Below are positions 1,420 to 63,653 of a stretch of DNA of 64,000 nt, in pieces. Source of the stretch: Eledone cirrhosa (taxonomy: Eukaryota); contig OZ024740.1 in NCBI GenBank assembly GCA_964016885.1, positions 302,684,001 to 302,748,000 of the forward strand, read 5' to 3'. Each line of letters begins with the position of its first letter. The first letter of the stretch is position 1. The position numbers and the translations under genes were made by a program. The notes beneath the pieces are model-generated. The model saw nothing but the letters and a program-made list of their open reading frames with translations. It was not told the origin of the DNA and did no database searches.

Positions 1420-1572
1420 TTCATTATTTCTGAAGACGGCATATGTATGTGTTGGTATGTGTATTAGATTTGATAGTTTGTATAATTTTGTATAATTTTG
1501 TACATAGATCTGTTGAATATGCATGCCAATTCTAACACATATATGTCCTAGAAACGATCGTTAAATAATGAA
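1420..1572 (+). ncRNA. Type I hammerhead ribozyme with long stem II insertion, probably in a PLE terminal fragment (~1310-1770)
   Basis: Stem I ttcattattt(1420-29)/aaataatgaa(1563-72); CTGAAGA 1430-36; stem II base ggcatatgtatgtgtt/aacacatatatgtc; GAAA 1551-54; palindromic stem III cgatcg; UH=TT. Confidence 0.8.
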
Positions 1573-1769
1573 CTTTTTTTGTTTAATATAAGGAACTGCT
1601 TCATTGTTATATTCATTATTTTTTTAATACTTTATCTTGACTCTGTATTCCGTTTATCTTTCACCGAAAGTGATTTTTGAATGCATCTCTTCTTTCCATG
1701 ATATCCGGATTACATTGAGTTCTTCATACGGATTGGACACTACCGTAAACTCTTGGTAGATTTATCTAC

Positions 1770-3650
1770 ATATATATATATATATATATATATATATATA
1801 TATATATATATATATATATCAATATATATATATATCAATATATATATATATCAATATATATATATATATCAATATATATATATATATCAATATATATATA
1901 TATATCAATATATATATATATCAATATATATATATATATATATATATATATATATATATATATATATAGATATATATATATAGATATATATAGATATATC
2001 AATATATATATATATCAATATATATATATATCAATATATATATATATCAATATATATATATATCAATATATATATATATATATATATATATATATATATA
2101 TATAGATATATATATATATATATATATCAATATATATATATATCAATATATATATATATATATATCTTGATATATATATCAATATATATATATATCAATA
2201 TATATATATATATCAATATATATATATATATATATATATATATATAAATATATATATATCAATATATATATATATCAATATATATATATATATATATATA
2301 TATATATATATATATATATATATATATATATATATATATATCAATATATATATATATATCAATATATATATATATATATATATATATATATATATATATC
2401 AATATATATATATATATCAATATATATATATATCTATATATATATATCAATATAAATATATATATATATATATATATAAATATATATATATATATATATA
2501 TATATATATATATATATATATATATATATATAGATATATATATATATATATATATATCAATATATATATCAATATATATATATATATATATATATATATC
2601 AATGTATATATATATATATATCAATATATATATCAATATATATATCAATATATATCAATATATATATATATATATATATATATATATATATATATATATA
2701 TATATATATATATATATCAATATATATATCAATATATATATATATATATATTTATATATATATATATATAGCAATATATATATATATATCCATATATATA
2801 TATATAACAATATATATATATATATAACAATATATATATATATATATATATATATATATATATATATATATATATATATATATATATATATCAATATATA
2901 TATCAATATATATATATATATATATATATATATCAATATATATATCAATATATATATATATATATATATATATATATATCAATATATATATATATATATA
3001 TATATATATATATCAATGTATATATATATATATATATATATATATATATATATATCAATATATATATATATATATATATATATATATATCAATGTATATA
3101 TATATATATATATATATATATATATATCAATATATATATATCAATATTTATATATATATATATATATATATATATATATATATATATATATATATATATA
3201 TATATATATATATATATCAATATATATATATCAATATATATATATATATATATATATCAATATATATATATATATATCGATATATATATATATATATATA
3301 TAGCAATATATATGTATTGTTATACTTGGGGAGGGTCATATTTGCGTAATATTGCCAGAATTAATAACAGAACACACTCACTGTTTGGTTGGTTTTCATA
3401 TAAAAAACCTCGCTAAACTAATATATATATATATATCAATATATATATATATATATATCAATATATATATATATATCAATATCTATATATATATATATCA
3501 ATATATATATATATATCAATATATATATACATATATATCAATATATATATATATATATATATATATATATATATATATATATATATATACATATATATAT
3601 ATATATATATATATATATATATATATATATATATATATATATATATATAC
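1770..3650. repeat. (AT)n array with recurrent CA interruptions (atatcaatat)
   Basis: Direct reading. Confidence 0.95.
3303..3422. mobile_element. Tiny fold-back fragment of the Neptune-like PLE terminal sequence
   Basis: tattgttatacttggggagggtcat matches ~18965, ~57440 and ~29575. Positions 3394-3421 are the reverse complement of ~18919-18947. Confidence 0.7.
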
Positions 3651-3666
3651 ATATTTATTAAAATAA

Positions 3667-3740
3667 CAGATTAAAGTTTAAGCAAAGAATCGCTGCTTTC
3701 ACCCTTAACGGAATCTTCCGAAACTAACAAAGTCAATCTG
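3667..3740 (-). ncRNA. Variant type I HHR of PLE family 1 (core CGGAAGA/CAGAAGA)
   Basis: Sense: cagatt..agttt CGGAAGA ttcc-gtta-agggt GAAA gca..tgc TT aaact..aatctg. Stems I and III pair; the core has a purine at U4. Confidence 0.6.
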
Positions 3741-59984: not shown

Positions 59985-60162
59985 TTGGCAGTTTCAGTAG
60001 AGGGTCGGACGCCATGCTTTCCAGCATAAAGTTACGCCCCTTTATGGTCTGAGTTCACATCCCACCGAGGTTAACTTTGCTTCATCCTTACCGGGTTGAT
60101 AAAATAAAGTACCAGTAATGTACTGAGTAATTGCTGGACTTGTGCCAAAAGTAGAAACAATT
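59985..60162 (+). mobile_element. S1 SINE
   Basis: Matches 10339-10515 in reverse. Confidence 0.82.
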
Positions 60163-60461
60163 ATCGTTAGAGTATTGGGGAAAGTGCTTCACATCATTTA
60201 GTTATGACAATTTACGATCTGTGTTTAATTCTCGCTGAAGTCAATTTAGATTTTCGTACTGCACTTCAGGTTCATAAACTCAATTCTAAAGTTTGTGTTC
60301 AATCCTAGTGAAGTGTCATCTACTCTGATTGAACAGCACCTTGTACGTCTTTCTGAAATTATTAGTACCATATATATATATATATATATATATATATATA
60401 TTAATACATACATACATATATATCCACACACACACATTATATATATATTATATATATATAT

Positions 60462-63200
60462 AGTAATAATAATAAATTTGAAGACTAAAATCCAAAGAGG
60501 GCTCGATAATGATAAATATATATCAAATATATAAGAACCGTAGAGCAAATATTTATTAAAATAACAGATTAATGTTTAAGCATAGAATCGCTGCTTACAC
60601 CCTTATCGGGATCTTCTGAAACTAACAAAGTCAATCTGTAAACGCAGAAGTGAATATTTCAAAAAACGTTGCAGCCGGAGGAAGACAGAAAGACGATACT
60701 TTGGTTCGTGGAAACGTTCCCTGGCAAAGAACGGGGAAAAACGAATATAATACGTCATTATTTCGAGCGGTGAAAAACAATTGCACGCAAATACAAAACC
60801 ACGTAAATGGTATAACTAAAGTCGTATACTAAAATTCTAACTAGGAAACCGAATGAATCTCCGCTTCAGAGTTAAGAATAAAGTAAATAAAATAAATAAA
60901 ATACAGAGGTAATTGAAATTATATAAATACATACACGCATCCAAATGCGTACATACACAAGCATACGCGAAAACACTCGCCATAGGTATACAAATACACG
61001 CACATATAAATATGTGTGTGTGTGTGTGTGCGTGTATACAAATAATTAAATAAACGTATATAAATAAATAAATACGTATATAACGAGCGCACATACATAC
61101 CTACATGTAAATACACAAATGTTCGGAGACGTACGTCAACCAAAACACGAAGTACACATATATACACACCCTACATACGTACGAAACCGCATACTCACAC
61201 AGACGCAAAACTCACGTATACACATATCCAAAAGCATATGTACCAGAATATATAAAATATACGCCATAACATATACAATCAAATATACGTACGAGAAAGT
61301 ATACGTACCTTCACAAAACATACAGGTAATATATACTTACCTATGCAAATAAGTAATGGTATAAACATAACATATACTTAGCTACCACATCGAGACGTAA
61401 AATATCCGCGTATAGATCGTACTATCCGTTAAGGTATAATGTGGGACTGTAATACAGGAAAGTGTTGTGCAATTTATGTTTACAAGCCGAAATTGCCTCA
61501 GATTTTTGGTTAAGATGTGGTCTGTGGCGTAGAGTATTTCCAGGGCCTCAGTGGCACAGAGGTCACATGGTCTTTTATTTCCGTTATACGATCTAGCCCT
61601 AGCTAGGATCTCCCAGTGTAAATTATATTGGGTGTGGTTGTCTTTTAGACTCCAGATATAAGCTGAAAGTGACGTCATATTCCTTCTTAGAGGGTAACGA
61701 AAAGAATTGGTATGCATGTAAAGACGCTGCTTGAATCTATTGGCGGTTAACCCTATGTAGGCCCTACGGGACGTGGGTGTTTCAACTTTACATTTGTAGA
61801 CAATGTTACTAGAGACGCATTTCCCGGATAGGGGGCAATCAACCCGATTCCTACAATTACAGTTAGTACTAACTACAGGGTTGCACGTGTTCCTACAGCT
61901 AGGTAGTTTAGCTAAATTTGAAGCTGTGATGTTATGTGCAAGGTTAGGAGTCGTAGAGTAAGAAATTTTAATAGTATTTCTATTAAAAATTTTACTATAT
62001 TTATGTGTAGGGGGAAAATGCTTCGTAATAAGGGATAGAAAGATCTTAGCTAATGGTGTGGCCACCTCCATATTATATGGTGGGTTATACCATATAATGC
62101 GTCGGGATCTATTTCTTCTAAGTCTATTCTCGTACTCTGTATATGCTACCTTATCGACAAATCCACTCCGAGCTAGAGCTTCATTGTAATATGTGGAATG
62201 GTCGTTGAAAATATGCTCGTTAATAGATAGACGGGAAAGCCTCAACGAAACGTTTCTTACCAGATTTTTGGTTATGCTGGCAGGATGGTTGGAATGCTTA
62301 CTTATGTAATTAAGCGTATCATTCGGCTTTCTATACGGGTAATACAACCCATTCGATAAATGGAGGGTAACCTCGAGGTAATTAAGGACCGAGAGGTTGG
62401 ACTCAACCTGTATAGAGAGGTTGAAGCCTTTAAAGAAGGCTGTGAGTTCTTTTCTGAACCTGTCGCAAGCACGTGGGCCGCACTTAGTCATGGTCTAAAG
62501 ACCATCATCACGGTACAAACCACCGCCCACGTTGGGGAATTCGTCCTTGATAGAGAAAAGAAGGAAAAGGCCGATAAGATCAGTAACCTCCGCAGAATCG
62601 CTGGCGCCCATACTCACGTCGAATGGGGTACTATGGGATTTTTTAATCCAAATCGAGTCGGTGAAATTAATCACCGACTTACGGGCATTGAGGATGACAT
62701 CAACTTCGAAATCCTTAACCATTTTATTTATTTTATTTACTTTATTCTTAACTCTGAAGCGGAGATTCATTCGGTTTCCTAGTTAGAATTTTAGTCTACG
62801 ACTTCAGTTATACCATTTACGTGGTTTTGTCTTTGCGTTCAATTGTTCTCCACGCTCCACATCTGACGTATTATCTTCGTTTTTTCCGTTCATTGCCAGA
62901 GAACGTCTCTATGAACCACCTTAGAGAATATTAGTCTACGACTTCTTTTATACCATAAACGTGGTTCTGTCTTTGCGTGTAATTGGTTTTCACCGCTCCA
63001 AATAATGACGTATTATATTCGTTTTTTCCCGTTCTTTGCCAGGGAACGTTTCCACGTTTCCTGTCTTCCCCCGGTTGCAACGTTTTTTGAAATATTCACT
63101 TCTGAGTTTACAGATTGACTTTGTTAGTTTCAGAAGATCCCGTTAAGGGTGAAAGCAGCGATTCTTTGCTTAAACATTAATCTGTTATTTTAATAAATAT
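60462..63200 (-). mobile_element. 5'-truncated family 1 PLE with inverted pLTR (62720-63200)
   Basis: Close homolog of 3651-5947; HHR-like motifs at 60565-60638 (-, GAAA>GTAA) and 63111-63184 (+). Confidence 0.92.
61420..62720 (-). pseudogene. PLE RT C-half + GIY-YIG with premature stop (~62495) and frameshift (~61505)
   Basis: LYRDDGL*; WYNPPY; CNCRNRVDCPL; AYIGLT. Confidence 0.9.
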
Positions 63201-63568
63201 ATATATATATATATATATATATATATATATATATATATATATATATATATATATATATATATATATATATATATATATATATATATATATATATATATAT
63301 GTGTGTGTGTGTCCCTATATGTATTTTGCATCTAGGGATACATACCTTATTATTATTAATCTCCCCTGGTCGAGATAACATTTTGGTCGTGTTAACTGCT
63401 GCTATTTCTAGTGGCAATAGATTGACCTTTCCGCCTCTGCCTTCTATCTTTATACACGGCACTAGACAGAATTGCTTCTTCATCATACACTCTCATCTCG
63501 GGAACAATTTTGAATGGCGCCAGTTCGTGATTTGAACTCGGGAATTTTATATTCTCCGAGCGAAAAGA

Positions 63569-63653
63569 ACCCTCTGACGAAAGTCTTCCTTTTCAATGGA
63601 TTTCCGTATGGATTATCCATTTATTTCGAGACTTGAAACCGTACGGTAAGGGT
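63569..63653 (+). ncRNA. Type I HHR with extended loop II in an unassigned fragment (~63310-63725)
   Basis: accct CTGACGA aagtct...agactt GAAA ccgtacgg TA agggt. Confidence 0.88.

What the first reader, a model, noticed from the sequence alone, without database searches (positions are those of the whole stretch)
1420..63653. A community of autonomous PLEs and non-coding hammerhead elements colonising (AT)n tracts
Seen: about 35 HHR motifs from roughly ten unrelated sequence families, counted by eye and including degenerate ones. About 30 fall within the first 33 kb, and nearly all are in inserts bounded by (AT)n. Some belong to RT/GIY-YIG elements (families 1, 2, 3, Neptune-like), others to non-coding units (310, 469/470, 555 bp, family D). 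Known: PLE pLTRs carry type I HHRs and Naiads are reported to target microsatellites. Inference: a few PLE enzymes mobilise many small ribozyme RNAs into a shared (AT)n target, a helper/satellite system at unusual density.
Basis: partly seen in the sequence, partly recalled or inferred. Interest (0 to 1): 0.8.

Follow-up and report, generated by a model that had tools for sequence, protein, structure and literature searches.

The report
Twin-primed Penelope elements and hammerhead retrozymes
This stretch is a pile-up, inside an unusually long AT microsatellite, of Penelope-type jumping genes and four protein-free repeats with a hammerhead ribozyme motif; their back-to-back insertions, each arm ending at a different one of two fixed points, suggest that both cut DNA ends were likely extended on one small, probably circular RNA, a testable answer to how such elements insert.

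Summary
Observation confirmed: 24-26 minimal type I hammerheads (about 35 with degenerate ones; shuffles give 0-1), nearly all beside (AT)n. The coding elements are Hydra-clade-like (DKT, CxCX5C, C-terminal GIY-YIG) and Neptune-like, not Naiads. Only four families are non-coding (310, 469, D, 555 bp; 1,463-24,211 motif copies genome-wide); most other 'small families' are truncated ends of coding PLEs, so 'few enzymes, many RNAs' is overstated and no helper was identified. The non-coding families carry the full PLE footprint: two divergent arms, both outer ends 3' ends in (AT)n, one with and one without a short tail (60 of 60 resolved; coding 17 of 18). Young 310-bp arrays are one haplotype over both arms, and inherited variants spare the ribozyme fold (8 of 8, against 1 of 8 sporadic), pointing to twin-primed rolling-circle copying of a monomer (inferred; no RNA data). 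The density (5.3-fold) matches the AT-tract excess (5.7-fold): a big target, not a special system. Retrozymes as PLE passengers are in print; the two-start-site footprint was not found in my searches, but this scan noted it before on other DNA of this and other genomes.

The parts
1180..1769 (+). 3' end of a Hydra-like family (F5); hammerhead core at 1430 with a 114-nt stem II and CGATCG stem III
   Evidence: related sequence lies 0.7 kb downstream of a Hydra-like ORF in L064
1770..32151 (.). Compound (AT)k-TG/CA microsatellite, 25% of the first 33 kb, split by the insertions; CA-type on + to 8461, TG-type from 9118
3650..7038 (-). Family 1 Hydra-like PLE: RT ORF 5139-6788 and GIY-YIG frame 4652-5275 (frameshifted), tail-less 3' end at 3650, short inverted tailed arm 6898-7038, non-canonical hammerhead-like motif at 3720
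   Evidence: 713-aa open frames in other copies
7132..7665 (+). Family D two-armed insertion (tailed left arm, tail-less right arm), hammerhead at 7443
8462..8860 (-). Truncated two-armed 3' end of Hydra-like family 3, hammerhead at 8668; its short inverted arm is joined directly to the E piece
8862..9117 (+). E: 3' end of a second Neptune-like family, hammerhead at 8923
   Evidence: endonuclease ORF directly upstream in L046, L170, L290
9415..10020 (-). 555-bp non-coding unit, 1.1 copies, hammerhead at 9676
10881..12037 (-). 469-bp non-coding tandem, single arm, hammerheads at 11170 and 11639
12942..15609 (.). 310-bp non-coding array: 6.3 units on minus (tailed end) joined to 2.3 units on plus (tail-less end); 8 hammerheads, no variants
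15735..16483 (-). Family D, 1.6 units, hammerhead at 16072; its 5' side is joined through a 4-nt overlap to the family 3 3' UTR
16484..18350 (.). Rearranged family 3 Hydra-like pieces (3' UTR and endonuclease end on minus; GIY-YIG and linker pieces on plus)
18901..20017 (.). Neptune-like fragment: GIY-YIG frame 19515-19889 (+), inverted arm with degenerate hammerhead at 19210 (-); further pieces at 3314-3420 and 57384-57790
20227..24264 (+). Family 2 Hydra-like PLE, 5'-truncated, two arms (tail-less left, tailed right), hammerheads at 20326 (-) and 24076 (+)
26041..26480 (.). Two-armed truncated end of Hydra-like family 4 (TGCGCA hammerheads at 26148 and 26283); second piece 28559-28821 (28635)
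   Evidence: ORF between its arms in L132
29518..30270 (-). Second E piece (degenerate core at 29771) and a family-2-like end (hammerhead at 30043); another family-2-like two-armed end at 48896-49322 (49224)
30275..31483 (+). D subfamily unit (degenerate core at 30433) and 555-bp unit (31341)
32152..32983 (-). Truncated family 1 end
60463..63196 (-). Family 1 copy, 5'-truncated: tailed long arm, tail-less short inverted arm
63301..63726 (+). Unassigned element with a complete hammerhead at 63574

Best explanation
The window is a long (AT)n target crowded with independent insertions of Hydra-like and Neptune-like Penelope elements and of four non-coding hammerhead repeats, and the non-coding repeats are likely inserted by a Penelope-type enzyme that primes from both cut DNA strands on one, probably circular, RNA. 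Shown: both outer ends of an insertion are 3' ends lying in (AT)n, they fall at two fixed sites 35-120 nt apart, one arm uses each, the 5' ends meet at random phase, and young arrays are a single haplotype. Inferred: tandem transcripts are cut by dimeric minimal hammerheads and ligated to monomer circles; the GIY-YIG domain cuts both strands of the self-complementary (AT)n; each 3' end primes reverse transcription at one of the two internal start sites (AT-rich, so short pairing is possible); both polymerases roll round the circle; the two cDNAs are end-joined. Older long arrays then expand locally as satellites. The hotspot follows target size.
For: Strand switches in the listed hits run minus-to-plus: 310 family 9 of 10 loci, none reverse; within 1.3 kb, 469 family 15 to 0, 555 family 15 to 0, D 11 to 1, counted by eye. 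One tailed plus one tail-less end: 310 family 10 of 10 unselected (p 0.002) and 33 of 33 resolved among 40 picked by a tailed end; 469 7 of 7; D 4 of 4; 555 6 of 6; coding family 1 10 of 11, family 4 7 of 7 resolved of 9. A purified PLE protein cuts and extends both strands, starts at two internal sites that bound the tail, and is modelled as a dimer (PMC11167929). 18 haplotypes in 35 arrays; both arms agree in 24 of 26, chance about 0.1. No indel at the cleavage site in 363 passes, 2 substitutions, against jumping between linear monomers. 8 of 8 inherited hammerhead variants keep core and pairing, 7 of 8 sporadic ones break them (Fisher p 0.0014). Same tract variant in the same orientation on both flanks shows a pre-existing target. 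Intact 713-aa family 1 frames exist (19 of 150 rows). Insertions 5.3-fold, AT bases 5.7-fold over background.
Against: No RNA, cleavage or circle was observed. No helper identified: no shared sequence with the coding elements tested. Long 469 arrays (14 and 39 units, and a 4-unit one) are mosaics with higher-order repeats, and 310 arrays L140, L142, L143, L151, L164 repeat variants, so DNA-level amplification or multimeric templates also act. Single-armed insertions exist (L053, L143, L152, window 469) and L206 has two tail-less ends. PMC11167929 found the ribozyme dispensable in vitro and start sites not homologous to the target; PMC4209133 found low activity for minimal hammerheads. The most abundant coding family has a non-canonical core. 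The 30 kb downstream hold 8 kb of (AT)n and no hammerhead, so target size is not the whole story. All 310 loci examined lie on one contig (C1).
Confidence: 0.66

Rival explanations
1. Same enzyme and twin priming, but the template is a long linear multimer transcript of a homogeneous source array; no circle is needed and length comes partly from later unequal exchange.
For: Mosaic and higher-order arrays; ribozyme not needed in vitro (PMC11167929); local amplification is the model discussed in bioRxiv 10.64898/2026.07.22.740005.
Against: Stepwise fixed haplotypes (131A; +123A; +47A+273C; +181T) need repeated monomer bottlenecks; stem I insertions are fixed in every unit of L131, L137 and L167; inherited variants are filtered for the ribozyme fold.
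Confidence: 0.16
2. One priming event only; the inverted arm and the missing tail come from fold-back synthesis and endonuclease resolution of the intermediate, as PMC8557442 suggests for tails.
For: Would also give identical haplotypes in both arms and one tailed end; single-armed insertions exist.
Against: Either arm can be the longer and either can carry the tail; the 5' phases of the two arms are unrelated; both strands are extended in vitro from two sites.
Confidence: 0.12
3. One reading: a locus-specific community where a few resident PLE enzymes serve many satellite RNAs.
For: Real local excess; one direct D to family 3 join that could be a template switch.
Against: Five families counted each have 1,463-24,211 motif copies genome-wide; rate per AT base is ordinary; most short pieces are ends of coding elements; 0 of 24 other family 3 loci show the join.
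Confidence: 0.04
4. The (AT)k-TG tracts are written by the PLE reverse transcriptase in telomerase fashion from a short template.
For: TG/CA is the commonest interruption in the window (228 of 345).
Against: Other insertions have TT, AC or GT interruptions, same orientation on both flanks; 3 such interruptions in 630 kb; the reversed control pattern is as common (82 against 112); five other TG tracts have unrelated neighbours.
Confidence: 0.02

Closest known systems
Metazoan non-LTR retrozymes (Cervera and de la Pena 2020, PMC7229834, passages read; Li, Clavereau and Pollet 2026, bioRxiv 10.64898/2026.07.22.740005, abstract to discussion read)
   Same: Non-coding, low-GC tandem units of a few hundred bases with one type I hammerhead each; PLE mobilisation and copying of a circular RNA into tandem cDNA are proposed there.
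   Different: Hammerheads here are of the minimal PLE type; units show no homology to the coding elements tested; insertions are two-armed, tailed at one end and (AT)n-targeted. 'Inverted' has 0 hits in the first paper and 1 (a reference title) in the second, where 'tail' and 'twin' have 0.
Hydra clade of Penelope-like elements (Craig et al. 2021, PMC8557442; section 11 and passages read)
   Same: Short single ORF, C-terminal GIY-YIG, DKT, CxCX5C linker, CxxC and CxH around E and N, (TA)n target, partial tandems, inverted 5'-truncated arm, tail often at one end only.
   Different: Tails are 85-89 nt rather than 30-40; family 1 has RWR for RWK and a non-canonical ribozyme core; very high copy number (31,982 first-look candidates, not a copy count).
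Poseidon element PAc (Frangieh et al. 2024, PMC11167929; main text read up to the methods)
   Same: Both strands cut and extended at AT-rich DNA; two internal start sites that bound the tail.
   Different: No pairing of one site per strand was reported and the ribozyme was dispensable in vitro; here the pairing is nearly strict and the fold is under selection in a non-coding passenger.
L1 twin priming (recalled, not read)
   Same: The second target strand primes a second cDNA, giving an inversion.
   Different: There the second site is random on a linear RNA and the arms do not overlap; here both sites are fixed and both arms repeat the whole unit.

Membership tests
Non-LTR retrozyme (310, 469, D, 555) | Tandem units of a few hundred bp, each with a type I hammerhead | tested here: met
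Non-LTR retrozyme (310, 469, D, 555) | No coding capacity, GC under 45% | tested here: met
   longest ATG frame 30-64 aa; GC 34.5-37.8%
Non-LTR retrozyme (310, 469, D, 555) | Dispersed, mobile copies | tested here: met
   1,219 tailed 310 ends; unrelated flanks
Non-LTR retrozyme (310, 469, D, 555) | Canonical hammerhead with loop-loop contacts (as in the 2020 paper; the 2026 preprint also admits minimal ones) | tested here: inconclusive
   core and stems present, palindromic stem III of PLE type; tertiary contacts not assessed
Non-LTR retrozyme (310, 469, D, 555) | Self-cleavage and circular RNA | not testable with these tools
   indirect only: selection on the fold in the 310 family
Non-LTR retrozyme (310, 469, D, 555) | Target-site duplication | tested here: inconclusive
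   cannot be resolved inside (AT)n
Hydra-clade PLE (families 1-5) | Single ORF with C-terminal GIY-YIG | tested here: met
   family 1 709-aa ORF; nearest Atlas clusters carry GIY-YIG, RVT_1 or HTH_animal on part of their members; weak Pfam GIY-YIG hit for family 3 only, 1 of 8 queries
Hydra-clade PLE (families 1-5) | DKT in place of DKG | tested here: met
   family 1 HSDKTG; region missing in the window's other families
Hydra-clade PLE (families 1-5) | CxCX5C linker; CxxC and CxH around E and N | tested here: met
   families 1 and 2; family 3 CxxC-E-N-CxH
Hydra-clade PLE (families 1-5) | RWK motif | tested here: inconclusive
   family 1 reads RWR
Hydra-clade PLE (families 1-5) | Canonical hammerhead | tested here: inconclusive
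   met in families 2-5; not met in family 1, whose core is CAGAAGA
Hydra-clade PLE (families 1-5) | (TA)n insertion | tested here: met
Hydra-clade PLE (families 1-5) | RT phylogeny with reference clades | not tested
   no named reference sequences were fetched
Naiad | N-terminal endonuclease, DKA, no canonical hammerhead | tested here: not met
Neptune (18901-20017, E) | C-terminal GIY-YIG with CX2-5CxxC linker and CCHH | tested here: inconclusive
   only a broken endonuclease fragment with Cys and His residues in the expected order; the label rests on recalled motifs

The most novel reading that the evidence does not exclude
A PLE dimer cuts (AT)n on both strands and reverse-transcribes one ribozyme-made RNA circle from two fixed start sites at once (twin-primed rolling circle); this single mechanism makes pseudo-LTRs, inverted arms and one-ended tails of coding PLEs as well, and the D-469-310 lineage is an old viroid-like parasite of that machinery rather than a recent pLTR fragment, able to switch templates with its helper (the D to family 3 join).
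Probability: 0.45. Interest if true: 0.8.

Novelty: new variant of a known kind. Interest (0 to 1): 0.6.

Why it matters
How PLEs make tandem, inverted and tailed insertions, what their hammerheads do and what mobilises animal retrozymes are open questions in the papers read. A young family with over a thousand insertions gives sharp predictions: two named start sites, one per strand, a monomer template and a needed ribozyme fold. A 310-nt RNA, an (AT)n duplex and an intact 709-aa protein from the same genome make them directly testable. The clustering itself is ordinary.

Tried and rejected
Rfam scan was swamped by miRNA models on AT repeats. Pfam missed the RT; no solved relative at E up to 10. 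Folding five motifs gave z-scores of -0.3 to -1.5, uninformative. DNA search with the 310 unit found nothing, not even itself, because common words are skipped. No RNA holder listed; four runs of unrecorded kind hold the unit as contigs with a head-to-tail joint, which tandem DNA explains: no evidence on expression. Telomerase-like tract synthesis rejected. Local duplication inside the window rejected: apart from arrays and inverted arms, long same-family pairs are 75-94% alike. D as the pLTR of family 3 rejected. Assembly artefact rejected: arms differ in length, phase and end, flanks are unrelated. Literature searches for the two-site rule: Penelope + twin priming + inverted: 2 listings on other subjects, not read; U4A: none. 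Supplements were not seen; those of PMC8557442 may list these Hydra families and those of the preprint are closed.
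Full report
Observation. The window (G000:C1:302684001-302748000 of a 3.0-Gb genome) holds 24 type I hammerheads at a strict threshold and 26 at a relaxed one, against at most 1 in 20 shuffles and 0 in 100 shuffles for a stricter descriptor. With nine degenerate or partial motifs the count is about 35. All complete ones but one (8923) have a short palindromic stem III, the form described for PLEs and thought to act as dimers (PMC4209133, passages).

What the pieces are. 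Families 1-3 have a C-terminal GIY-YIG region with the CxCX5C and CxxC/CxH motifs, and family 1 has DKT: the Hydra pattern, a clade already known to insert in (TA)n (PMC8557442 section 11). They are not Naiads. Family 1 is young and abundant: 150 scored matches at 96-100%, 19 with a 713-aa open frame and no stop. Several short inserts are truncated ends of coding elements: TGCGCA pieces (23,444 motif copies, no tandem spacing, ORF between the arms in L132), 8462-8860 (family 3), 1180-1769 and E. Four families are non-coding tandem units: 310 bp (4,085 exact motif copies), 469 bp (1,463), D (24,211) and 555 bp (4,431). D and 469 align at 62-73% round the unit and share an octamer-like motif; 310 resembles D only at the ribozyme; none matches the coding pieces tested beyond low-complexity sequence.

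Insertion anatomy. Non-coding insertions are typically a minus array joined to a plus array, so both outer ends are 3' ends, and these lie in (AT)n. In the 310 family the ends cluster at unit positions 273-285 and 309-6, 130-170 nt past the predicted cut at 146, and each insertion has one of each: 10 of 10 two-armed loci among 11 unselected. Among 40 further loci picked by a tailed end, the other end was tail-less in 33 of 33 resolved; dropped were L131 (parse failed), L138 (gap), L140, L164, L169 (ran off), L143, L152 (single arm). The rule holds for 469 (7 of 7 resolved among 15 loci), D (4 of 4 resolved of 6), 555 (6 of 6), coding family 1 (10 of 11 resolved in the window and 20 loci) and family 4 (7 of 7 resolved of 9). 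A tail at one end is known for PLEs and two internal start sites with extension of both strands were shown for PAc; one site per arm follows if both target strands prime on the same RNA (inferred).

Template. 35 arrays of three or more units fall into 18 haplotypes with 72 sporadic variant sites in 115 kb; both arms agree in 24 of 26. The cleavage junction shows no indel in 363 passes. Inherited variants in the 43-nt ribozyme are all compatible with core and stems (8 of 8; 36 of 129 possible changes are), sporadic ones mostly are not (7 of 8). This points to a monomer bottleneck and a needed fold, best met by a circle copied round. Against a pure reading: some long 310 arrays repeat variants and three 469 arrays are mosaics, two of them long with higher-order repeats, so local amplification follows or multimers are sometimes used. 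No RNA evidence was obtained.

Density. Background is 46 motifs, 43 events, in 630 kb (63 evenly spaced samples chosen by me). The first 33 kb have 12 events (5.3-fold) and 25% (AT)n against 4.4% (5.7-fold). Events correlate with tract number across samples (rho 0.59), although 30 kb downstream has much (AT)n and no motif. The TG/CA interruption is a local feature of a pre-existing tract. Whether insertions lengthen tracts is untested.

Comparison and verdict. Retrozymes as PLE passengers and circle-to-tandem copying are proposed in print (PMC7229834, passages; bioRxiv 10.64898/2026.07.22.740005, parts 1-3 of 5). My searches did not find the two-armed, one-site-per-arm footprint or selection on the fold for retrozymes. 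I reached this reading before consulting earlier notes; the scan had recorded it for other loci, two of which caution that a circle is not shown. New variant of a known kind; interest 0.6, carried by the mechanism and not by the clustering.

Noticed in passing
window 16480-16484: Family D arm joined through a 4-nt overlap to the family 3 3' UTR in the same sense: a template switch (which would name a helper) or a deletion; absent from 24 other family 3 loci.
   Followed up: partly
window 8462-9117: Family 3 end joined directly to a Neptune-like end; the tract polarity flips from CA to TG across it, suggesting an inversion breakpoint.
   Followed up: partly
L033 and L032 (12-27 kb upstream of the window): Inverted 98-100% duplication that includes a PLE 3' part plus nested family 4 and other inserts and their tracts, with a tandem repeat on one side: 3' transduction or repair copying between inverted arms.
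   Followed up: partly
window 3720, 32213, 60618, 63131: Family 1 hammerhead-like motif has A at position 4 in 41 of the 43 copies matched and a longer stem III; activity unknown.
   Followed up: partly
D and 469 units (e.g. window 7375-7390): Conserved ATGCAAAT octamer about 115-130 nt upstream of the cut site; possible internal promoter element (function recalled from snRNA promoters, untested).
   Followed up: no
tails of families 2, 3, 4 (e.g. 24175-24264, 26386-26472): Shared TACTCC...GAGTGCT motif, a candidate RT-binding signal.
   Followed up: no
window 24585-25775, 18350-18779, 57198-57360, 63301-63726: Unassigned inserts at AT tracts; the first has a weak hammerhead-like motif and no relative in the loci held; a two-armed family with stem III CAGTTCTAGTCCTG appears in background samples.
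   Followed up: no
window 10339-10517, 37062-37165, 42483-43096, 58403-58571, 59984-60164: Dispersed 180-bp SINE-like family.
   Followed up: no
window 37000-40900 (minus strand): Decayed non-LTR retrotransposon-like coding sequence, two related pieces at 74%; label by eye.
   Followed up: no
L196 and L238 flanks: A diverged relative of the 310 family ends at an AT tract.
   Followed up: no
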